Both the position numbers and the translations under genes were made by a program. A stretch of DNA of 38,528 nucleotides from a bacterium (GTDB lineage Bacteria; Patescibacteriota; Minisyncoccia; Minisyncoccales; RBG-13-42-11), in assembly GCA_030646565.1 (NCBI GenBank), contig JAUSLA010000046.1, forward strand, positions 1 through 38,528, read 5' to 3'. The notes under the pieces are model-generated. The model was not told the DNA's origin. It worked only from the letters and a program-made list of their open reading frames with translations, and made no database searches. Below, piece after piece: positions 16,691-31,178 of this stretch; within the stretch, counting starts at the first letter, position 1; every line of letters starts with the position of its first letter.

Positions 16691-16780
16691 AATCGAGTCC
16701 CTCCTGCGTCGGGACGAAGGTTAAAAAGAGTCGAAGAATGTTCATTCTTCTCCGCCCTTCGCTGCGCTCGGGCCTTTGAC
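16691..16780 (+). repeat. Nested two-hairpin repeats
   Basis: Outer AATCGAGTCCC...GGGACGAAGGTT...CTTTGAC with an inverted inner copy at 16730-16773. Confidence 0.8.
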
Positions 16781-23087: not shown

Positions 23088-25143
23088 AAGTCCAACAAAA
23101 TCAAAAACTATTTCAAGTTATTTGGGCCCGGAGTTTAAGGTTCTTTCTTCCTACGGCCATGTTCGAGATTTACCGAAAGGCGAATTTGGCATTGACACAG
23201 AAAATAACTTTGAACCAAAATATGTTATTCCTCCAAAAGCAAGAAAAACAATTAAACTTTTGAAAGAAGCTGTTGCAAAAGCCGACACAACTATTCTTGC
23301 TACCGACGAAGACAGAGAGGGAGAAGCGATTTCCTGGCATTTGTCTCAGGTCTTAAACCTAAATGGCAAAAAATCGTATCAAAGAATTGTTTTCCATGAA
23401 ATTACGAAATCAGCCATTAAAGAGGCTCTGAAAAATCCAAGAAAAATAGATATGAATATGGTTGACGCCCAGCAGGCAAGGAGGTTTTTAGATAGAATTG
23501 TGGGCTACAAACTTTCTCCATTTTTATGGAAAAAAGTTGCAAGAAAACTATCAGCCGGAAGAGTCCAGTCGGTAGCAGTAAGGTTGGTTGTAGAAAGAGA
23601 AAGAGAAATACAAAAGTTTATTCCGGAAGAATATTGGACAATCATTGCCCAGTTAGAAACCATTGCGAACTCTAAAAACCAGCCGGGAAAGCTGGAGGCT
23701 CTACTGGTGAAAAAAGATGGAAAGGCTATTTCAAAATTGGAAATAAAGAATGAAAAGGAAGCGGAAAATATTCTTGCAGATTTAACCGGAGCTGAATACA
23801 AAATAATAAATATCGAAAAAAAAGAAGTGAAGAAAAATCCTTTGCCGCCTTTCACCACCAGCACTTTACAGCAGGAGGCATGGAAAAGATTTAAATTCCC
23901 GGCAAGGTTTACAATGCAAATAGCCCAGCGGCTTTACGAAAACGGATTAACGACTTATCACAGAACCGACTCTCTAAATCTTTCTGATTTGTCTTTATCT
24001 GCGGCTAAAAAATTTATTATTAAAGATTACGGAAAAGAATACTGGGCGGGAATTTTCAGAAAATATAAAACAAAATCAAAAGGCGCCCAAGAAGCGCATG
24101 AAGCCATCAGGCCGGCTTATCCTGAAAAGACCCCGGACTCTTTAAAACTAGGCGAAAAGGATAAATCCTCTTCTTCAGCCTTCGCTGCGGCTCGGCTCTA
24201 CGATCTGATTTGGCGAAGATTTATCGCCAGCCAAATGAGCCAAGCCGTATTTGACGCTACAGGCGTGGATATTGCCGCCAAGAATTATGCTTTCAGGGCT
24301 AACGGGCAAACTTTAAGGTTTGACGGCTTCCTTAAGATTTATCCAATAAAATTTGAGGAAAATGCGTTGCCTTCCTTGGAAAAAAACGAAACTTTAGAAT
24401 TAGTAAAACTAAGTCCTTTGCAGCATTTCACCCAGCCGCCTCCAAGATTTACCGAGGCCAGTTTGATTAAAATACTTGAAGAAAACGGCATCGGCCGGCC
24501 TTCAACTTATGCTCCAACTCTATCTACTATTCAAGACAGGAACTACATCGAAAAAGACGAGCAAAGAAGATTTAAACCTACTGAAATCGGCTTTACGGTC
24601 AACGATCTTTTGGTAAGCCATTTTCCGCAAATTGTTGATATTAATTTTACAGCCGCTATGGAAGAAGACTTAGACGAAATTGCAGAAGGTAGAGAGAAAA
24701 CCGTTGACGTCCTTAGAAAATTTTATGTTCCCTTTGAAGAAAATCTAAAGAAAAAATATGAGGAGGTTGTAAAAAAAGAAATCATCGCAAAACCGACGGA
24801 TAAAACCTGCCCAAAATGCGGAGCTCCCTTAGTGATAAAGTTTGGCAGATTTGGAGAATTTTACGCTTGCTCAAAATTCCCAACATGCCGATATACCGAG
24901 GCCTTAGAAAAAAATAATTTGGGGATAAAGTGTCCGAAATGTAAAGAAGGAGAGATTGTTGAAAAACGGACTAAAAAAAGAAAAATATTTTATGGCTGTT
25001 CCAATTGGCCGAAATGCGATTTTGCCTTATGGGACAAACCAACCGGAGAACTTTGTCCAAAGTGCCAATCGCTTTTAATCAAAACGAAAAGAGACGAAAC
25101 AAAATGCTCGAACAAAGAATGTAATTTCAAGGTTGAAAAATAA
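23068..25143 (+). CDS. topA: DNA topoisomerase I
   Basis: IVESPTK, DEDREGE, SAGRVQ, TYHRTDS (catalytic Tyr), GIGRPSTY and C4 zinc ribbons. Confidence 0.98.
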   Translation: MRLIIVESPTKSKTISSYLGPEFKVLSSYGHVRDLPKGEFGIDTENNFEPKYVIPPKARKTIKLLKEAVAKADTTILATDEDREGEAISWHLSQVLNLNGKKSYQRIVFHEITKSAIKEALKNPRKIDMNMVDAQQARRFLDRIVGYKLSPFLWKKVARKLSAGRVQSVAVRLVVEREREIQKFIPEEYWTIIAQLETIANSKNQPGKLEALLVKKDGKAISKLEIKNEKEAENILADLTGAEYKIINIEKKEVKKNPLPPFTTSTLQQEAWKRFKFPARFTMQIAQRLYENGLTTYHRTDSLNLSDLSLSAAKKFIIKDYGKEYWAGIFRKYKTKSKGAQEAHEAIRPAYPEKTPDSLKLGEKDKSSSSAFAAARLYDLIWRRFIASQMSQAVFDATGVDIAAKNYAFRANGQTLRFDGFLKIYPIKFEENALPSLEKNETLELVKLSPLQHFTQPPPRFTEASLIKILEENGIGRPSTYAPTLSTIQDRNYIEKDEQRRFKPTEIGFTVNDLLVSHFPQIVDINFTAAMEEDLDEIAEGREKTVDVLRKFYVPFEENLKKKYEEVVKKEIIAKPTDKTCPKCGAPLVIKFGRFGEFYACSKFPTCRYTEALEKNNLGIKCPKCKEGEIVEKRTKKRKIFYGCSNWPKCDFALWDKPTGELCPKCQSLLIKTKRDETKCSNKECNFKVEK

Positions 25144-25168
25144 ATAAATTCTGTTAATTTAAGTGTAG

Positions 25169-25255
25169 GCCGCGGTGGTGGAATTGGTTTACACGTACGA
25201 TTCAAAATCGTATGACCGCAAGGTCGTGTGGGTTCGACTCCCACCCGCGGCACCA
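25169..25255 (+). tRNA. tRNA-Leu(CAA)
   Basis: Acceptor GCCGCGG/CCGCGGC plus ACCA; anticodon arm TACGA-TTCAAAA-TCGTA; long variable arm GACC-GCAA-GGTC; T arm GTGGG-TTCGACT-CCCAC. Confidence 0.96.
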
Positions 25256-25401
25256 GTAAGGAAAAGTCAAATTTTGTTGGTTCGCCTCGCTTTGCTCGGC
25301 GACCAAATTGTAGGGAATTTTGGGCGAAAAAATCAGTTGGCGGTTTTGAATTAATAAAAGAAAATTTTTTCAATAATTATTAACTAACCGAAGGAGAAAA
25401 T

Positions 25402-25590
25402 ATGAAATACATTATCTATGTCCGCAAAAGCACCGAAGAAGATGACCGACAGGTTTTATCCATTGAAGCTCAGCTTGTTGAGCTAAAAGAATTTGCCGCC
25501 AAAGAAAAACTTGAAATTGTCGCCTCCTTTGAGGAGGCAAAAACTGCCAAAGAACCTGATAAAAATATCTGCTCGAACCGCATTTTGTAA
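25402..25590 (+). pseudogene. Truncated serine recombinase (N-terminal catalytic fragment)
   Basis: YVRKSTE..DRQVLSIEAQ..ELKEFA motif with catalytic Ser; stops after 62 aa; GAAGGAG SD. Confidence 0.85.
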
Positions 25591-25711
25591 AAGAAAATTT
25601 TTACATATCTGATTCCGAATTTAGTTTCGGTTTTTTTATTTTTGAGCTATAATTTAAGTAGACATGGCTAAAATAGATAAACAGCACATTAACAAGAAAG
25701 GAGGGAAAACT

Positions 25712-26992
25712 ATGACCAGCAATGTCCTAATTATCGGTAGTGGTGGAAGAGAGCATGCACTTGCATGGAAACTCGCTCAATCACCACGCATTGGCAAGTT
25801 GTATGTTGCGCCCGGAAATGGCGGCACTCGTGATATCGCTGAAAATATCGCGATTGAAGCCACAGACGCCGGAGGTTTGGCTCGTTTTGCCGAAAAGAAT
25901 TCAATCAATCTGACAATAGTCGGTCCTGATGACCCGCTTGCGCTTGGCGTAGTTGACGTTTTTCAATCTCATGGCTTGCGCATTTTCGGACCCACTCGCG
26001 CCGCGGCACAGATTGAAGCGTCTAAAGCGTTTGCCAAACGACTTATGCGCGATAGCAATATCTCGACTGCGCCTTTTCGGATATTTCGGAAGCACGAAAA
26101 TGCTTTAGAATATGTCCGCGAACATGGCGCGCCGATTGTCGTGAAAGCAAGTGGATTGGCTCTCGGCAAAGGCGCTTATCCCTGCAAAACGCTCGCTAAA
26201 GCAGAGAAAGCTCTGGCAGAAATTATGCTTGAGCGTGCTTACAAACAAGCCGGTGATGAAGTTATCGTCGAGGAGTTTCTAAGCGGGCAAGAAGTTTCAA
26301 TTCACGCTCTCTGCGACGGCAAAACCTCAATCCTATTACCTACCGCGCAAGACCACAAGCCGATTTTCGACGGCGACAAGGGCAAGAATACTGGCGGTAT
26401 GGGAACAATTGCACCTGTACCGTGGGTTACAGATCAGACCTTGCGAGAAGTGAACGAGCAAATCGTTCGTCCGACTTTGCAAGCGCTTGTAAAGAAAGGA
26501 AAACCGTTTACTGGCTGTTTGTACCCCGGACTCAAGATGACAGACGAAGGGCCGAAAGTGCTTGAATTCAACGCAAGATTCGGCGACCCCGAAACGCAAA
26601 GCTATATGCGACTCCTCAAAACAGATTTGCTTGATGTTTTAGACGCATGCGTTGACGGAAAACTCGCCAACTTTGCTGTTGAATGGAATTCTGGTTTCAC
26701 CGTTTGCGTTGTTCTCGCTTCGGGAGGGTATCCGGGAAAGTACAAAAAGGAAATCCCGATATTCGGTATTGCTGAAGCGGAGAAAATTCCCAGTGTCGTT
26801 GTTTTCCACGCTGGCACAATGTATAGCGACCAACTTCGGACTTCTGGCGGACGCGTTCTCGGAGTTACAGCAGTCGGTAAAACTCTTCAAGAAGCTCTTG
26901 ATCGGGCGTACGAAGCAGTCCATTGCATCAGGTTCAAGGACAGGCAGTTCCGAAAAGACATCGGGGCTAAAGCTATCGCTATGGGGTTCTAA
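25712..26992 (+). CDS. purD: Phosphoribosylamine--glycine ligase
   Basis: GSGGREHALA, APGNGG, KASGLALGKG, NTGGMG, EFNARFGDPE and TSGGRVL; AAAGGAGGG SD before ATG 25712. Confidence 0.97.
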   Translation: MTSNVLIIGSGGREHALAWKLAQSPRIGKLYVAPGNGGTRDIAENIAIEATDAGGLARFAEKNSINLTIVGPDDPLALGVVDVFQSHGLRIFGPTRAAAQIEASKAFAKRLMRDSNISTAPFRIFRKHENALEYVREHGAPIVVKASGLALGKGAYPCKTLAKAEKALAEIMLERAYKQAGDEVIVEEFLSGQEVSIHALCDGKTSILLPTAQDHKPIFDGDKGKNTGGMGTIAPVPWVTDQTLREVNEQIVRPTLQALVKKGKPFTGCLYPGLKMTDEGPKVLEFNARFGDPETQSYMRLLKTDLLDVLDACVDGKLANFAVEWNSGFTVCVVLASGGYPGKYKKEIPIFGIAEAEKIPSVVVFHAGTMYSDQLRTSGGRVLGVTAVGKTLQEALDRAYEAVHCIRFKDRQFRKDIGAKAIAMGF

Positions 26993-27021
26993 TTCCTTCG
27001 GGGATTGAACCCCCTTTTTTT
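26983..27021 (+). terminator. purD intrinsic terminator
   Basis: GGGGTTCTAATTCC-TTCG-GGGATTGAACCCC followed by a T run. Confidence 0.75.
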
Positions 27022-27150
27022 ATTTTGAAAAAGAATTTACCGCCAAAGCAGTAAATTTTTCAAGCTTATTTTTCTTGAAAAATTTACTGTAATAAGTTAT
27101 GCTTAACTCATAGAAAAACTTGAAATTGTCAAAGATCGTGGCGAAGCCGT

Positions 27151-27342
27151 TCAAATTTTGGGGGGCTGGCCGTCGCCGCCGCAGGCGGCGAAATGCGTTC
27201 GAACTATTTTAAGAATAGAGCACCATTTAGGAAATTGCAAGGAAAATGTGTTCGCTTTGCGGAGTTTATCCCGACGCAGGAGGGACTCGGCGACTAATTT
27301 GTATTCAATTTTTGGGGCAAAAACGAATTGGCGGTTTCGCAT
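27151..27342 (-). pseudogene. Probable recombinase C-terminal remnant spanning the cassette 1/2 junction
   Basis: NRQFVFAPKIEYKLVAE...FPKWCSILKIVRTHFAACGGDGQPP; first half matches 25256-25346 and second half matches 28275-28366. Recombinase origin is inferred. Confidence 0.55.
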
Positions 27343-28366
27343 TTTGGGGGAAGAAAATTTTTAATAACAAAACTTATGACAAAAAAAATATTTATCGTAA
27401 TCGTAATACTTGCTGTGGTTGTTATCGGTGCAATAATTTTTACGAACCGTAATAATATCAAATCGCCACTACCACCTCTGACTGACGAACTAACTGTGCC
27501 AGAATATGTGAGTGTATTTCTCGCCTCATCAGTCGAAAATAATGAGAGACTGCCCGTTTTGATTTTATCTGCTGTTGCAGGTGGTGGTTGCGATTCTGCC
27601 TCGGATTTAGAAACAAGAAAGTCATTAAATGGTGATGCCTTGGTTGTTGATATAAAGGGATATAAGTTCACCAAAGGCACCGGCGAAGTTTGCCCTGCAG
27701 TTATTTTGGAATCAAGAGCTAAGGTTAGCGTAGATCCCGGTTGGTTGAAGCAAAGTGAAGATAAAGAAATCATATTTAAATTAGGTGGACAAGATAATAG
27801 ATATAAAATTTCATATAGCAAATACCAAGTAACTTTGAGCGGGATTCAGGCGACCAACGTTATCACTAATCGACCAGGATACAATCCCCCTGAAACGCCG
27901 ATAACTTTGGAGATGACATTGTACCCCACAGATGTTGCTGTTATGTATCTTGCGGGTTCTGTTTCGTCCGCAAAAGATTACAGACCAGCAATGCGAGATT
28001 TTGCCCGAGCAAAAGAATTTATACCAGCCGAGGAAGTTTATTCCGGGCTTGAGCAAAACGAGAAAAGCCAATTTTACGTAGTACTCAAGAATCACCCTAT
28101 GCCAGAACCAAATCGCAGTGAATCGCTTGGTGAATTGCCCGGCGAGGGTGTCGGCGTTTATCTTAAACAAGTTGTTAGTGATGCAAAGCATTATTGATTT
28201 TTTAATTTTTAATTGCCGCCAAAGAAAAACTTGAAATTGTCATCGGCGCGGCTCCGCCGCGTTTTCTGAATTTCGCGGGGGGCTGGCCGTCGCCGCCGCA
28301 GGCGGCGAAATGCCGAAGGTACTGAGAAGCGAAGTACGTTCGAATTATCTTTAGAATACAGCACCA
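27226..28366. mobile_element. tRNA-Leu-integrated cassette 2 (single cargo gene)
   Basis: Bounded by GCACCA at 27220-27225 and 28361-28366; left and right ends homologous to cassette 1. Confidence 0.7.
27376..28197 (+). CDS. Hypothetical secreted or membrane-anchored protein
   Basis: MTKKIFIVIVILAVVVIGAII signal anchor, 273 aa, one Cys pair; no family recognised. Confidence 0.8.
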   Translation: MTKKIFIVIVILAVVVIGAIIFTNRNNIKSPLPPLTDELTVPEYVSVFLASSVENNERLPVLILSAVAGGGCDSASDLETRKSLNGDALVVDIKGYKFTKGTGEVCPAVILESRAKVSVDPGWLKQSEDKEIIFKLGGQDNRYKISYSKYQVTLSGIQATNVITNRPGYNPPETPITLEMTLYPTDVAVMYLAGSVSSAKDYRPAMRDFARAKEFIPAEEVYSGLEQNEKSQFYVVLKNHPMPEPNRSESLGELPGEGVGVYLKQVVSDAKHY

Positions 28367-28409
28367 AACTGAGCTTGGTTTCAGCCACGCTTAACGGAGC
28401 ACAAGATAT

Positions 28410-28688
28410 ATGGCAAAACCTTTCAAAATTATAAAAGAAGTACAAGGAGAAACAAAAAAAACAACAATCACTCTGATTCTGGGTGGCTTCGGACTTGTTG
28501 CGGCGTTGGCTTGGAACGACGCAATCCAGACATTTTTTAATATTTTCTTTCCGAAAACAAGCGGCTTGGTCGGAAAATTTATTTACGCTTTAATAATCAC
28601 CTTTATTATTGTTGTTCTTTCTTCTCAATTAAGAAAAATTTCTGAAACAGAAGAACAATCAAATAACCTTGATGAAAAATCCAACTAG
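28410..28688 (+). CDS. Small two-TM membrane protein (DUF5654-like)
   Basis: GFGLVAALAWNDAIQ...KFIYALIIT motif. Confidence 0.8.
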   Translation: MAKPFKIIKEVQGETKKTTITLILGGFGLVAALAWNDAIQTFFNIFFPKTSGLVGKFIYALIITFIIVVLSSQLRKISETEEQSNNLDEKSN

Positions 28689-28736
28689 CGCTATAATTAA
28701 AATAGAACATTTCAATAACAATAAGGAGGGAAAGAA

Positions 28737-29105
28737 ATGAGAAGAGCTAATGCTCAACTCCGCATTTTTGACGCAAAAGAAAAACTTTTGGAAATTGCGG
28801 CAATAGTAGGCCTTTTAGAAGGAGTATTTATCGGTTTGATTTTTGGCACATACTTTTATGCAAAATATAATGCGGCCGCAAGTTTGGATGGAGGAGCGCT
28901 TTTGGGCGCTGGCATCAGCTTTAGCTTAGCGATGATTTGGACAGCTGTTACTATTTCATGGACAATAAAAAACACCGATTTCGTCTCAAGGTTGAGAATA
29001 AGCGGGACAAGCGCGTTGATAAATTTTACAGCAGCTTGGATAGGATATTTTTTTAGTTCAGCAATAGGCGCCCTAGGAGCCGCTCTTCTCTCAAAGATGT
29101 TTTAG
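28737..29105 (+). CDS. Hypothetical membrane protein
   Basis: AAGGAGGG SD and three hydrophobic segments. Confidence 0.75.
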   Translation: MRRANAQLRIFDAKEKLLEIAAIVGLLEGVFIGLIFGTYFYAKYNAAASLDGGALLGAGISFSLAMIWTAVTISWTIKNTDFVSRLRISGTSALINFTAAWIGYFFSSAIGALGAALLSKMF

Positions 29106-29116
29106 TATATAAAAAT

Positions 29117-29492
29117 AGGCGATGAGGACTGCGTCCTCATCTTCACCTTCGGTAGGCGATGAGGACTCTGCCCTCGTCTTTGTTTTCGTCCACCAGAGGC
29201 GGACTTGATACTTGCTGGCTATTCGTTAAACGAATAGCCAGCTTTTTTATTATGAAATCAATTACCCGAGCCGATAGGCGAAGGGTGGAGAAGAACGAAA
29301 GTTCTTCGATTACCCGAGCCGCAGGCGATGGGTGGAGAAGAACACGAATGTGTTCTTCGACTCATCTTCATCTGCCAAGTCCTGCGTTGCAGGACGCAGG
29401 TGGATCCGAAGAGATAAACCTCTTCTTCCGCTTCAGCTAACGCTTCAGCAAAAGAAAATTTATCTTCTTTGACCATCCCGCTTCGCTCGGTA
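29117..29492. repeat. Cluster of at least 7 tandem or nested two-hairpin repeats around a terminator
   Basis: Copies at about 29118, 29155, 29264 and 29312, plus a multiply nested block at 29362-29492. Confidence 0.85.
29214..29248 (+). terminator. Intrinsic terminator
   Basis: GCTGGCTATTCGT-TAA-ACGAATAGCCAGC followed by TTTTTT. Confidence 0.8.
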
Positions 29493-29981
29493 TATAGCAA
29501 AAATTAGCCAGCCGGAAAAAACACCGACAACAGCTCCCATTAAAATGTCTGAAGGCCAATGGACTCCGGCAAAAACCCGAGAAATAGAAATTAAAAAGCT
29601 GGCAAATAAAAAGAAAACGCCGGCTTTTTTGTTGTAAAAATAAACAACGGCGGACAAGCCAAAGAAAAAAGCTGCGTGGCCGGACGGAAAAGAACCGGTT
29701 ATATCGTGAGATAAAAGCAGATTAACTTTATTTTCCACAAATGGCCTTTGTCTTTCCCAAAAAAATCTGATTAATTCTGTAATTCCAAAACGGGCCAAAA
29801 TCGCAGCTAATAGTGCCTGAAACGCCATTGGCCAGTATTTTTTTAGGTCTTTAACCAAGAATAAAAGCAAAAGCAAAAGCAAAACGTAGCCAAGATTCTC
29901 GGCGAAAAAAACTCCCGACTTATCAAGTGAAGCCCATTTTCCGGCAAATTGATTAATTTTTTGAAAAATTAAATAGTCCAT
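29460..29981 (-). CDS. PAP2-family phosphatase (undecaprenyl-diphosphatase BcrC-like)
   Basis: RQRP, SFPSGH and SRVFAGVHWPSD motifs. Confidence 0.92.
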   Translation of the reverse strand: MDYLIFQKINQFAGKWASLDKSGVFFAENLGYVLLLLLLLFLVKDLKKYWPMAFQALLAAILARFGITELIRFFWERQRPFVENKVNLLLSHDITGSFPSGHAAFFFGLSAVVYFYNKKAGVFFLFASFLISISRVFAGVHWPSDILMGAVVGVFSGWLIFAIYRAKRDGQRR

Positions 29982-29987
29982 ACAATT

Positions 29988-31178
29988 TTACCATTTGAAT
30001 TTTGGCGGCAAGCCCAAAAACATCAATCCCAGAGACAGGACACCCGCAATTAAAAAAGAAATGTTCAGCTGGGAGGTAAAAAGAAAAATTCCGGCTAAAA
30101 TCAGCATAAAAAAGAATCTCGCGATATTATTCAAAACTTCGCTATAAACAATAAATTCATCGGAATTTTCGCCTGCCAAAGAAACTTTTTTATAATAGAA
30201 GGTCTGAAATGGAACGCCGGCCGAAGTGCGGCACACCTGATAAAGGGTCGCAGCCAAAAAAGCGTCAAAAGGTGTCTTTACAAAATATCTTATAAGCCAA
30301 GCCATAAAGCTTAAAACGGAACCTATGTTCAAAAACCAGACGCGGTTAATAATGGTATCAGACATTCTGCCCATATACAAAGTGAATAAAGCCGTTGCTA
30401 TCAATCCAAAAGTGGTAATGCCTCCCATTGCGGCGTAACTGATTGCCAGAATGAACATAAAAAGAGGCCACAAATAAGCGTTAACCACGCTCTCGCAAGC
30501 GTCGGCAGAAATGGCTAAAGAAAATTTCCTGTTTTCTTTTTTGAAAATTCTTGCCCATGCCTTCCTGTAAGAATCGCTGTAAACAATATGGCTTTCTTTT
30601 GAAAGAAACATCGGTATGGAAGAGGCAAATAAGACCACTAAAACCGCGCTGAATAAAGCCGGGTATCCTCCGGCGCTCAAAATAACTCCGCCAAGAACAG
30701 GGCTGATAATTGTCGGCAAAATCAAAGCAACATTCATTTTACCGACTTCTCTGCCCTGATATTGCCCTCCGGAAAGGCGAGAAAAATCCACATGAAAAGC
30801 TGGCCAAAAAAGCGTCATTCCGATACCCTTAAGAAGCATGGCAAGAGGTACTAGTAAAAAAGATTTTTGGATTAAAGACAGAGCAATAAAATAACCAAAG
30901 AAGAAAAAATGACTGAAAAGCATGCTTTTTCTCGCTCCGATCCTTGTCATTAATTTCCCTCCGAATACCGCAAATAAACCGTAAATGCCGTGGATAACTC
31001 CAAAATACAAAATAGTCAGAGATAAAGATTTTCCAAAATAAAGATAAAGATAAACCGGCTCAAAAATCACAACCATTCCAATAGCTAAGGCTCTTATGGC
31101 AATGCTGGTGAAAAACTGGCTTGAAGATTGTTTCAAAAAACGGCGGAAAAAATTAGCCGGCGATGAATCAAAAAACAT
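29988..31178 (-). CDS. MFS transporter
   Basis: About 12 TM helices; GKLMTRIGARK and GRMSD motif-A-like loops. Confidence 0.85.
   Translation of the reverse strand: MFFDSSPANFFRRFLKQSSSQFFTSIAIRALAIGMVVIFEPVYLYLYFGKSLSLTILYFGVIHGIYGLFAVFGGKLMTRIGARKSMLFSHFFFFGYFIALSLIQKSFLLVPLAMLLKGIGMTLFWPAFHVDFSRLSGGQYQGREVGKMNVALILPTIISPVLGGVILSAGGYPALFSAVLVVLFASSIPMFLSKESHIVYSDSYRKAWARIFKKENRKFSLAISADACESVVNAYLWPLFMFILAISYAAMGGITTFGLIATALFTLYMGRMSDTIINRVWFLNIGSVLSFMAWLIRYFVKTPFDAFLAATLYQVCRTSAGVPFQTFYYKKVSLAGENSDEFIVYSEVLNNIARFFFMLILAGIFLFTSQLNISFLIAGVLSLGLMFLGLPPKFKW

What the first reader, a model, noticed from the sequence alone, without database searches (positions are those of the whole stretch)
25169..28366. 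Tandem array of integrase-less gene cassettes stacked at the tRNA-Leu 3' end
Seen: GCACCA, the last 6 nt of the tRNA (25250-25255), recurs at 27220-27225 and 28361-28366. The first two are followed by homologous left ends: CTCGGCGACCAAATTGTA...TTTTGGGCGAAAAA..TTGGCGGTTT (25294-25346) versus CTCGGCGACTAATTTGTA...TTTTGGGGCAAAAA..TTGGCGGTTT (27286-27337). The last two are preceded by homologous right ends: GAAAAACTTGAAATTGTCA...GGGGGCTGGCCGTCGCCGCCGCAGGCGGCGAAATGC...CGTTCGAA..AGAATA (about 27113-27225 and 28224-28366). The layout is tRNA-[L purD R]-[L secreted protein R], about 2.0 and 1.1 kb, with one intact cargo gene each and no intact integrase. Inference: an integron-like accumulation platform of miniature integrative elements mobilised in trans, probably by a serine recombinase, using a core of only about 6 bp so the tRNA stays intact for further insertions.
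Basis: partly seen in the sequence, partly recalled or inferred. Interest (0 to 1): 0.85.

Follow-up and report, generated by a model that had tools for sequence, protein, structure and literature searches.

The report
Decayed recombinase cassettes stacked behind tRNA
Two small mobile gene cassettes sit one behind the other after a leucine tRNA gene; they are decayed members of a widespread and apparently undescribed family of serine-recombinase elements that insert at the tail end of many different tRNA genes in tiny-genome groundwater bacteria.

Summary
tRNA-Leu(CAA) is followed by two units (25256-27225 and 27226-28366). Each has a homologous left end (L) and right end (R), and each is closed by GCACCA.

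The reading is largely right and can be sharpened. Cassette 1 is not recombinase-free: it holds a 62-aa remnant of a large serine recombinase (LSR). A purD element with the intact LSR sits at tRNA-Leu(CAA) in a metagenome contig (L175) and shares a diagnostic 63-nt insertion with cassette 1. Cassette 2 recurs end to end (90% nt) behind tRNA-Leu(CAG) in a distantly related genome.

The right-end DNA occurs in 59 of 301 genomes of the order, and the LSR in 123 of 301. Close purD homologues lie behind 10 tRNA species. The shared core is 4-8 nt (acceptor end, N73, C74), and the element supplies the CA of CCA.

Closest known are the Dehalococcoides ssrA islands and SCC elements, not integrons. Movement in trans is not shown.

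New here: an inverted internal attP-like site in every autonomous copy examined, and an invariant S-hairpin-S2 DNA element inside the recombinase gene.

Verdict: real, and a new variant of a known kind.

The parts
25169..25255 (+). tRNA-Leu(CAA), the target. T-loop GTTCGA starts at 25232, 24 nt before the gene's last base. Core copy 1 (GCACCA) is 25250-25255.
25256..25401 (+). L1, the left arm of cassette 1. It holds the arm motif directly after the core, a small hairpin, and the P motif (AAAAGAAAATTTTT-like) about 30 nt before the ATG.
   Evidence: alignment A1 of 10 L ends behind Leu, Val, Arg and Phe tRNAs
25402..25590 (+). Remnant of a large serine recombinase gene (62 aa): residues 1-52 joined to a C-terminal tail (..KNICSNRIL).
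   Evidence: Pfam Resolvase E 4.1e-7; 47 of 54 residues identical to the full-length recombinase of L103; the tail matches ..KNIGSNHIL.. of full-length proteins
25493..25556 (+). S (25493-25521), hairpin (25522-25538) and S2 (25539-25556): a DNA-level conserved element inside the recombinase reading frame.
25712..26992 (+). purD (phosphoribosylamine-glycine ligase), the cargo of cassette 1.
   Evidence: three GARS domains, E 2e-70 to 5.5e-31; carried by autonomous elements in metagenome loci
27029..27130 (+). S', a copy of S split by a roughly 63-nt insert that folds into a 17-bp hairpin. The same insert is present in L175.
   Evidence: (z -6.4)
27131..27225 (+). R1, the right arm of cassette 1: GC hairpin 27173-27191, arm 27197-27219 starting GTTCGA, and core copy 2 at 27220-27225.
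27226..27375 (+). L2, the left arm of cassette 2. R1-core-L2 together make an attP-like junction.
27376..28197 (+). Cargo of cassette 2: a 273-aa protein with a hydrophobic N-terminus and no Pfam family.
   Evidence: 93% aa identical homologue in L144
28213..28366 (+). S (28213-28241), terminator-like hairpin (28244-28259), GC hairpin (28290-28308), arm (28338-28360) and core copy 3 (28361-28366): the right arm of cassette 2.

Best explanation
The region is a two-member array of non-autonomous derivatives of a family of integrative elements driven by a large serine recombinase (LSR). The family is common in this order of small-genome groundwater bacteria.

Proposed mechanism (inferred). The LSR reads the conserved 3' half of a tRNA gene: the T-loop GTTCGA plus the acceptor end. 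It crosses over at about N73-C74. The element's left arm L then follows the tRNA and supplies the CA of CCA. Its right arm R ends in a copy of the last 4-8 tRNA bases. Only the tRNA half of the target seems to be recognised, because the sequences downstream of the different tRNAs are unrelated. An occupied site (tRNA-core-L) would therefore remain a target, so new elements insert next to the tRNA and push older ones outward. That would leave R-core-L junctions such as 27197-27260.

Cassette 1 is a decayed copy of a purD-carrying autonomous element. The recombinase gene lost everything between S2 and its C-terminal tail, most likely by recombination between the S2-tail repeats that autonomous copies carry.

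Cassette 2 has lost, or never had, the recombinase. It moved horizontally as a discrete unit.

What is shown: anatomy, distribution, boundaries, horizontal transfer, and the existence of autonomous copies. What is inferred: the crossover position, half-site targeting, the order of insertion, and any movement in trans (my odds about 50%).
For: Recombinase remnant:
- Pfam Resolvase match for ORF 25402-25590.
- 87% identity over 54 aa to a full-length protein with Resolvase + Recombinase + Zn_ribbon_recom domains.

Autonomous counterparts:
- L103 has R-GCACCA-L-recombinase, with L and R close to L1 and R1 by eye.
- L175 has tRNA-Leu(CAA)-GCACCA-L, a full recombinase, then S2-tail-P-purD-S'-R. Window 25539-27191 aligns to it at 91.2% over 1658 columns, and it has the same insert splitting S'.

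Same cargo, many tRNAs:
- Of 32 metagenome loci with purD at least 76% identical, 16 have a same-strand tRNA within 2 kb upstream. These are 10 tRNA species.
- The first 30 bases after the tRNA are identical behind Arg(TCG), Leu(CAA) and Ile(TAT).

Cassette 2:
- It aligns end to end (90.2% over 1148 columns) with L144, directly behind tRNA-Leu(CAG).
- The L144 flanks match this genome only at 35-53% amino-acid identity, apart from a few stretches of 8-13 residues.

Spread:
- S+R DNA occurs in 59 of 301 genomes of the order and 8 of 26 of the family.
- The LSR occurs in 123 of 301.
- In 27 of 30 fetched LSR loci, a tRNA lies right after the gene, convergent with it.

Core follows the target:
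- GCAC(CA) for Leu, Lys, Arg, Phe and Val.
- GTCCAC for Ala and Cys.
- GGAGC(CA) for Asn.

Crossover position:
- In this group the tRNA-L joints read GCACCA.
- Nine R-flank joints read GCAC followed by something other than CA.
- Five unoccupied tRNA-Leu genes of relatives read GGCAC followed by something other than CA.

Arm spacing:
- The R arm's GTTCGA lies 5 bp farther from the core than the tRNA's own T-loop GTTCGA: 29 against 24 nt for Leu and Asn, 27 against 22 for Ala.
- Arm length is constant in the 23 aligned R ends.

Arrays elsewhere: R-core-L junctions occur in L055, L061, L066, L077 and L078.
Against: - This genome (93% complete, 74 contigs) has no intact LSR; the one Resolvase hit is the remnant. 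The cassettes may therefore be fixed fossils.
- No excision or circle junction of this locus was seen. Only Logan contigs could be laid. The joints listed there have short sides or unknown letters between, and may come from other organisms.
- Recombinase-less cassettes at different tRNAs can each arise by decay in place, because recombination between S2-tail repeats always gives the same product. Identical scars therefore do not prove movement after the loss.
- Recombination of attP with an occupied attL-type site is not what studied LSRs do (recalled knowledge).
- The exact empty joint could not be shown.
- All data are MAGs and metagenome contigs, which break at these very repeats.
- The record behind L144 carries a name from another phylum and may be mis-binned.
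Confidence: 0.8

Rival explanations
1. The cassettes are exchanged and stacked by ordinary homologous recombination across the conserved L, S and R flanks after DNA uptake. The serine recombinase plays no part in array growth, and recombinase-less units never move by site-specific recombination.
For: S is 96-100% identical across families while L and R drift. Word depth over S is 35-40 times that of the flanks in four groundwater runs. The same cargo families occur with two kinds of left arm. There is no intact LSR in this genome.
Against: The boundaries fall exactly at the tRNA's last bases, and the core changes with the target tRNA. Flank-guided replacement does not predict this. S is only 29-34 nt long. 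The same L sits behind unrelated tRNAs whose upstream DNA offers no homology. The R arm copies the T-loop motif at a fixed +5 bp offset.
Confidence: 0.12
2. A tyrosine recombinase, either a classical tRNA-targeting integrase or an integron- or Xer-type system, made the array.
For: tRNA 3' ends are the usual targets of tyrosine integrases. A 4-8 nt identical core is the size of a tyrosine-recombinase overlap region. Both points are recalled knowledge.
Against: The genome has one Phage_integrase hit, on another contig (C34:12490-13023). The only recombinase sequence inside the cassettes is a Resolvase remnant. In 16 of 17 LSR loci with enough upstream sequence, the LSR gene is flanked by an inverted repeat of the core plus L. 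None of the 20 body ORFs of five autonomous elements scanned hit a tyrosine recombinase family.
Confidence: 0.03
3. The layout is an assembly artefact, or a local tandem duplication that later diverged.
For: S (29 nt) and the 37-nt R block are repeats at which the Logan contigs break. One metagenome contig (L192) looks like a palindromic mis-assembly.
Against: The cargo genes are unrelated. L1 and L2 are only 78% alike. Depth is even at 46-57. Each cassette recurs as a unit elsewhere with the same ends. The repeats are shorter than a sequencing read.
Confidence: 0.03

Closest known systems
Dehalococcoides ssrA-specific genomic islands (DsiB integrase; PMC3146451, passages read)
   Same: They use a large serine recombinase of the CcrB type and insert at the 3' end of a tRNA-like RNA gene. 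The recombinase gene is convergent with the target, and its 3' end overlaps attL and the RNA gene; the same holds in 27 of 30 loci here. Islands stand in tandem, separated by repeats of the target's 3' end. Fifteen islands lack the integration module and were read as cis-mobilizable elements that grow by accretion. There are no transfer genes.
   Different: Their target is one gene (ssrA) with a 20-bp repeat in the T-loop. Here many ordinary tRNAs are targets, with 4-8 nt at N73-C74. They are 10-kb-scale islands with a multi-gene integration module that includes a second small recombinase. Here there is one LSR, no second Resolvase among 20 body ORFs, and cassettes of 1-2 kb. The passages I read mention no internal inverted attP-like site and no S-hairpin-S2 element.
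SCC / SCCmec composite islands and pseudo-SCC elements (recalled; titles only seen)
   Same: LSR (Ccr) elements insert at the 3' end of one conserved gene. The target is regenerated, so that elements stack. Members without a recombinase, bounded by the same repeats, are common.
   Different: Their target is rlmH, not tRNAs. They measure 20-60 kb. The recombinase families and end sequences are different.
Tycheposons of Prochlorococcus (bioRxiv 10.1101/2020.12.28.424599, passages read)
   Same: These are cargo-carrying elements that integrate at tRNA genes of streamlined genomes. Several elements may sit side by side, separated by partial tRNA copies. Degenerate remnants build islands, and cargo is adaptive or defensive.
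   Different: 474 of 501 carry tyrosine recombinases, each tied to one tRNA. Their att repeats are about 40 nt. Many carry replication modules. They are not single-gene cassettes.
Integron gene cassettes (recalled; PMC4889954 seen as a listing only)
   Same: Small units, mostly of one gene and without a recombinase, are stacked at one platform. New ones probably enter at the proximal end. Much of the cargo has unknown function.
   Different: Integrons have an IntI tyrosine recombinase, attI, folded attC sites and a common promoter. None of these is present here.

Membership tests
Large serine recombinase (LSR) integrative element | Recombinase with Resolvase catalytic domain, Recombinase domain and zinc ribbon | tested here: met
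   L100, L050 and L103 proteins each hit PF00239, PF07508 and PF13408. The window itself keeps only a 62-aa Resolvase fragment.
Large serine recombinase (LSR) integrative element | N-terminal catalytic serine | tested here: inconclusive
   The Pfam match covers residues 4-53, and the text reads ..YVRKST... The residue was not mapped onto a solved enzyme.
Large serine recombinase (LSR) integrative element | att sites share only a few bases at the crossover | tested here: met
   Identity between the R end and the tRNA end is 4-8 nt.
Large serine recombinase (LSR) integrative element | Phage-type half-site holds its outer motif about 5 bp farther from the centre than the bacterial half-site (a rule recalled from structural work on LSRs) | tested here: met
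   GTTCGA lies 29 against 24 nt (Leu, Asn) and 27 against 22 nt (Ala) from the core end. Arm length is constant in 23 R ends.
Large serine recombinase (LSR) integrative element | Catalysed attP x attB recombination | not testable with these tools
   Needs an assay.
ssrA-island / SCC type of LSR island | Recombinase gene convergent with the target gene and overlapping attL | tested here: met
   True of 27 of 30 relatives' loci. In the window the remnant points away from the tRNA.
ssrA-island / SCC type of LSR island | Tandem stacking that includes members without a recombinase | tested here: met
   The window, and L055, L061, L066, L077 and L078.
ssrA-island / SCC type of LSR island | Target is ssrA or rlmH | tested here: not met
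   Targets are ordinary tRNA genes of many kinds.
ssrA-island / SCC type of LSR island | Second, small serine recombinase partner (DsiA / CcrA) | tested here: not met
   No Resolvase hit among the 20 body ORFs scanned, from five autonomous elements.
Integron | IntI tyrosine recombinase and attI beside the array | tested here: not met
   The neighbours are topA and a DUF5654 gene. The one Phage_integrase hit lies on contig C34.
Integron | attC sites between cassettes | tested here: inconclusive
   The Rfam scan of 24000-30000 found only the tRNA. No attC model was run. The junctions are R-core-L sites of another kind.
Tycheposon | tRNA-specific tyrosine recombinase of the tycheposon clade | tested here: not met
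   The element recombinase is an LSR.
Cis-mobilizable element (CIME) | Bounded by attL- and attR-type sites, with no recombination or transfer genes | tested here: met
   Cassette 2 holds one ORF with no Pfam family. Cassette 1 holds purD plus a 62-aa remnant.
Cis-mobilizable element (CIME) | Moves together with, or by means of, an autonomous neighbour | not testable with these tools
   No reads or assays were available.

The most novel reading that the evidence does not exclude
The S-hairpin-S2 element inside the recombinase gene, its separated halves at the two ends of every cargo segment (S2 at the start, S at the end), and the inverted internal attP-like site together form a built-in DNA-rearrangement system. 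Flipping between the inverted repeats would split and rejoin the recombinase gene, acting as an on/off switch that sheds recombinase-less cassettes. It would also load or swap single genes at fixed boundaries (P on the left, S on the right). That would be a serine-recombinase analogue of integron cassette capture, in bacteria with tiny genomes.
Probability: 0.15. Interest if true: 0.85.

Novelty: new variant of a known kind. Interest (0 to 1): 0.7.

Why it matters
Bacteria with 0.4-1.4 Mb genomes are thought to have few routes for gaining genes. Here one recombinase family appears to use the universal T-loop and acceptor end of tRNA genes as a half-site. That would make nearly every tRNA gene a docking place, and one that stays open after use.

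The family carries several kinds of cargo:
- defence systems: type I and III restriction-modification, OLD-like nuclease, RadC;
- secreted and membrane proteins;
- stray metabolic genes.

One such metabolic gene is purD, which has no AIRS-domain (purM/purL) or SAICAR-synthase partner in this genome.

If confirmed, this would explain patchy gene content in these lineages. It would also offer an LSR whose target rule (tRNA 3' half, +5 bp arm offset, crossover at N73-C74) can be tested directly. The invariant S-hairpin-S2 element and the inverted internal att site are not explained by what is known of LSR elements.

Tried and rejected
1. L and R as terminal inverted repeats. I first read L and R as imperfect inverted repeats. 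A local alignment of L against the reverse complement of R in the window is no better than shuffles: 84 of 500 and 256 of 500 shuffles reach the score. I dropped the idea.

2. Excision or circle junctions in reads. Only Logan contigs of four runs could be laid. The listed joints (for example 25263 to 27270 in X1, and R-CGGAG-CCA-L in X3) have short sides or unknown letters between, and fit repeats from other organisms. No conclusion was drawn. A part without cover in X2-X4 says nothing.

3. Exact empty site. The topA-tRNA-Leu(CAA) pairing is kept in 13 of 13 family loci. No homologue of the DUF5654 gene or the next two ORFs lies within 1.5 kb downstream in any of them.

4. purD as cassette cargo in reference genomes of the order. 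None of the 13 other purD loci fetched has S, S2 or the R arm; three have a one-mismatch P-like match, none before purD. The cassette context appeared only in metagenome contigs.

5. Rfam found no RNA family in 24000-30000 other than the tRNA.

6. Promoter and terminator scans were not above shuffles.

7. Cultured phages hold only distant LSRs, under 30% identity in the 10 rows listed and under 60% in all 373 records. Two IMG/VR contigs carry a 74%-identical recombinase gene broken after residue 117. This was not followed further.

8. L192 looks like a palindromic mis-assembly and was not used.

9. The identical S2-tail scar in the window, L191 and L171 was considered as proof of movement after loss of the recombinase. 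I rejected it, because recombination between the repeats gives the same product each time.

10. Literature. These searches found no description of this family:
- 'serine recombinase' + Patescibacteria + tRNA + integrat (1 paper, unrelated);
- 'serine recombinase' + 'Candidate Phyla Radiation' (2 versions of an inovirus paper);
- 'large serine recombinase' + 'tRNA gene' + attB (14 papers, 12 listed, all on phages or vectors by title);
- five terms on CPR, mobile elements, tRNA, recombinase and cassette, with at least 4 required.
Subscription journals and supplements were not searched. For the papers I saw listings only. I read passages of 10.1101/2020.12.28.424599 and PMC3146451. The LSR half-site rule, SCC biology and integron features are recalled.


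Full report
**1. The observation**

The window holds one tRNA gene, tRNA-Leu(CAA), at 25169-25255. GCACCA, its last six bases, recurs at 27220-27225 and 28361-28366. As a bare hexamer this means nothing: there are 9 copies in the window against 8.47 expected. What matters is that the three copies sit at the edges of homologous blocks.
- After copies 1 and 2 come left ends that are 78% alike over 58 nt.
- Before copies 2 and 3 come right ends that share a 37-nt exact block and a 38-nt block at 84%.

The two units measure 1970 and 1141 nt. They carry purD (three GARS domains) and a 273-aa protein with a hydrophobic N-terminus and no Pfam family.

**2.

ORF 25402-25590 is the N-terminus of a serine recombinase (Pfam Resolvase, E 4.1e-7). 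It is 47 of 54 residues identical to a full-length protein of a relative. After residue 52 it jumps to the C-terminal tail (..KNICSNRIL against ..KNIGSNHIL..). So cassette 1 holds an internally deleted recombinase gene.

A 29-nt piece of that ORF, S (25493-25521), recurs exactly at the start of R2 (28213-28241). It also recurs at the start of R1, split there by a roughly 63-nt insert that folds into a 17-bp hairpin.

The same genome has further copies:
- On contig C39, tRNA-Cys is followed by an L end, a small ORF and an R end that closes with GTCCACTA, which mimics the tRNA-Cys end.
- On contig C32 lies another L-cargo-S unit.

**3. Spread**

- By DNA search, the S+R end occurs in 8 of 26 genomes of the family and 59 of 301 of the order.
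- In 14 of the 29 order loci fetched, a same-strand tRNA lies 0.6-1.2 kb upstream of S.
- Together with the family loci, the targets include Leu (CAA, GAG, TAA, CAG), Lys (TTT, CTT), Arg(TCT), Phe, Val, Ala (TGC, CGC), Cys, Glu and Tyr.
- Cargo is diverse. Of 20 cargo proteins scanned, 9 hit a family: Mu Gam, NT5C nucleotidase, two methyltransferases, PP2C, a Na/Ca exchanger, two PsbP-like proteins, and one weak YajC match below the curated cut-off. Eleven hit nothing. Many have hydrophobic N-termini by eye.

**4. The recombinase**

A full-length homologue (about 450-500 aa, with Resolvase, Recombinase and Zn_ribbon_recom domains) is found in 123 of 301 genomes of the order at E up to 1e-20, often in several copies.
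- In 27 of 30 fetched loci, a tRNA gene lies directly after the gene on the opposite strand. In at least 11 of them the protein alignment runs into the tRNA.
- In 16 of 17 loci with enough upstream sequence, the gene is flanked by an inverted repeat of 68-171 nt (74-100% identical; 14 of the 16 at 92% or more). The outer ends of that repeat are the tRNA's last bases.
- Upstream of the gene the order is R arm, core, L.
- In all 7 elements fetched at larger scale, a second inverted-repeat pair (95-298 nt, 92-100%) made of R ends encloses a cargo body of 0.8-7.3 kb.

Read from the tRNA, an autonomous element is therefore:
tRNA-core-L, the recombinase gene pointing back at the tRNA, an inverted L-core-R (an attP-like site turned round), the cargo body, then R-core-flank.

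Bodies carry type I and type III-like restriction-modification genes, an OLD-like nuclease, RadC, Schlafen/AlbA and HTH proteins. None of the 20 body ORFs scanned hits Resolvase.

**5. Both window cassettes recur as units elsewhere**

Cassette 2 (27220-28366) aligns end to end, at 90.2% over 1148 columns, with locus L144 (contig CAKKQO010000067.1). There it sits directly behind tRNA-Leu(CAG) and closes with GCACCA. The flanks of L144 have no nucleotide match in this genome. Their best protein-level matches are 35-53% identical, apart from a few stretches of 8-13 residues.

For cassette 1, a scan of metagenome contigs found 32 loci with purD at least 76% identical.
- Sixteen have a same-strand tRNA within 2 kb upstream, of 10 species.
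- The first 30 bases after the tRNA are identical behind Arg(TCG), Leu(CAA) and Ile(TAT).
- L173, L175 and L194 carry the complete recombinase.
- L175 is at tRNA-Leu(CAA) and has a 100-nt perfect inverted repeat round the recombinase. It matches window 25539-27191 at 91.2% over 1658 columns. It has the same palindromic insert splitting S', which points to common descent.
- L191 has the window's own layout (L, remnant, purD) behind tRNA-Lys(TTT), at 89.2% over 1625 columns.

**6. How cassette 1 arose (inference)**

In L175-type elements the body begins with S2-tail-P. That is a copy of the S2 piece and the tail of the recombinase gene joined together.
- If the recombinase segment is flipped between its inverted repeats, the two S2-tail copies become direct repeats. 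Recombination between them then gives exactly L-P-recN-S-hairpin-S2-tail-P-purD-S'-R, which is the window's cassette 1.
- An inversion between the inverted S2 copies would give the same joint.
- This may also explain why intact elements are all seen with the gene pointing at the tRNA (27 of 30): the other state decays.

Because the product is always the same, the shared scar in the window, L191 and L171 does not prove movement after the loss.

**7. Where the crossover lies (inference)**

- In the GCAC group the tRNA-L joints read GCACCA. Nine R-flank joints read GCAC followed by something other than CA.
- Five unoccupied tRNA-Leu(CAA) genes of relatives read GGCAC followed by T or A.
- The shared block therefore ends at C74, and the element brings the CA.
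- For Ala and Cys the block is GTCCAC. For Asn it is GGAGC.
- In all three classes the R arm begins with a GTTCGA-like motif exactly 5 bp farther from the core than the tRNA's own T-loop GTTCGA: 29 against 24, or 27 against 22. Arm length is fixed in the 23 aligned R ends.

As I recall from structural work on LSRs, phage-type half-sites carry their outer motif about 5 bp farther out than bacterial half-sites. The fit suggests that the enzyme reads the T-loop and acceptor end of any tRNA gene. Sequences downstream of the different targets are unrelated. So I infer that only the tRNA half is recognised, and that an occupied site stays a target. That would account for the arrays and for the R-core-L junctions in the window and in L055, L061, L066, L077 and L078.

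**8. Empty sites**

The topA-tRNA-Leu(CAA) pairing is kept in 13 of 13 family loci. Eleven show no L-like sequence after the tRNA, and several have a terminator-like hairpin there. One carries an L of another subfamily, and one is unclear. Downstream genes differ, so the precise joint 25255/28367 cannot be shown.

**9. Unexplained: S-hairpin-S2**

Inside the recombinase genes of this subfamily, S (29-34 nt) and S2 (18 nt) are almost invariant, with at most 2 changes each in the copies listed. The codons before them differ freely at synonymous sites. The 17-nt hairpin between them keeps pairing through three different stems, partly by paired synonymous changes.
- S is the most conserved part of the cassettes (0-3 changes in the 23 aligned R ends).
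- S is sharply bounded in metagenome contigs. Loose ends with low agreement lie on both sides, and depth is 35-40 times that of the flanks.
- Cargo ORFs often stop within a few bases of S, and a P motif lies 25-50 nt before many cargo start codons.

I cannot say what S does. Candidates are a recombination hot spot, a regulatory structure, or a protein-binding site.

**10. Comparison with known systems**

The closest described system I found is the set of ssrA islands of Dehalococcoides (PMC3146451, passages read).
- Shared: a CcrB-like LSR whose 3' end overlaps attL and the RNA gene, tandem islands behind the target, and 15 islands without the integration module, read as cis-mobilizable elements.
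- Also close: SCC elements (recalled) and tycheposons (passages read).
- Different here: many tRNA targets, a 4-8 nt core at N73-C74, one-gene cassettes, no partner recombinase, the inverted internal att site, and S-hairpin-S2.
- Integron membership fails on the recombinase and the sites.

My searches found no description of this family. Supplements and subscription journals were not seen.

**11. Verdict**

The region is a two-member array of decayed LSR elements at a tRNA 3' end. It belongs to a widespread family that seems undescribed and is a new variant of a known kind.

Not shown: present-day activity, movement in trans, and the roles of S and of the inverted internal site. This genome has no intact LSR, so its cassettes may be fixed.

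Noticed in passing
window 25712-26992: purD looks like an orphan. The genome (93% complete) has no AIRS-domain gene (purM/purL) and no SAICAR synthase. purD occurs in only 23 of 301 genomes of the order.
   Followed up: partly
window 27269-27290 and 16694-16714; G000 C45:25240-25261, C34:342-363, C52:2623-2652: A 21-22 nt motif inserted in the loop of the L2 hairpin recurs at several unrelated places in the genome. It may be a tiny hairpin-forming insertion element.
   Followed up: partly
window 27049-27111; L066, L080, L081 R ends: Small palindromic inserts (30-65 nt) interrupt S, the hairpins or R in several cassettes. The one in the window folds into a 17-bp stem (z -6.4) and is shared with L175.
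   Followed up: partly
G000 contig C39:890-1140: After the R end behind tRNA-Cys come several head-to-tail units of about 60 nt, each with a GC-rich hairpin.
   Followed up: no
L161-L165 (G162, G113, G222, G258, G103): The larger autonomous elements are defence islands: type I and III-like restriction-modification, an OLD-like AAA+TOPRIM nuclease, RadC, Schlafen/AlbA_2, and a 70-aa Cro/C1-type HTH ORF at the recombinase-proximal end of the body in L161.
   Followed up: partly
L168, L169 (IMG/VR contigs): Two predicted viral contigs carry a 74%-identical recombinase gene that breaks off after residue 117 into unrelated DNA. The gene may be interrupted by an insertion.
   Followed up: no
family loci L117, L118, L121, L122, L126: Five unoccupied tRNA-Leu(CAA) genes of relatives do not encode CCA but still read ..GGCAC. 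Occupied ones read GCACCA, the CA coming from the element.
   Followed up: partly
L146:2428-2681: A HicB-like antitoxin ORF (named by eye, not scanned) lies between tRNA-Tyr and a cassette carrying a homologue of the cassette 2 cargo.
   Followed up: no
L175:5456-6661: The body of the purD element holds a second S2...S unit, joined head to head to the first through two inverted inner R parts with the arms and core missing. Bodies can therefore be concatenated.
   Followed up: partly
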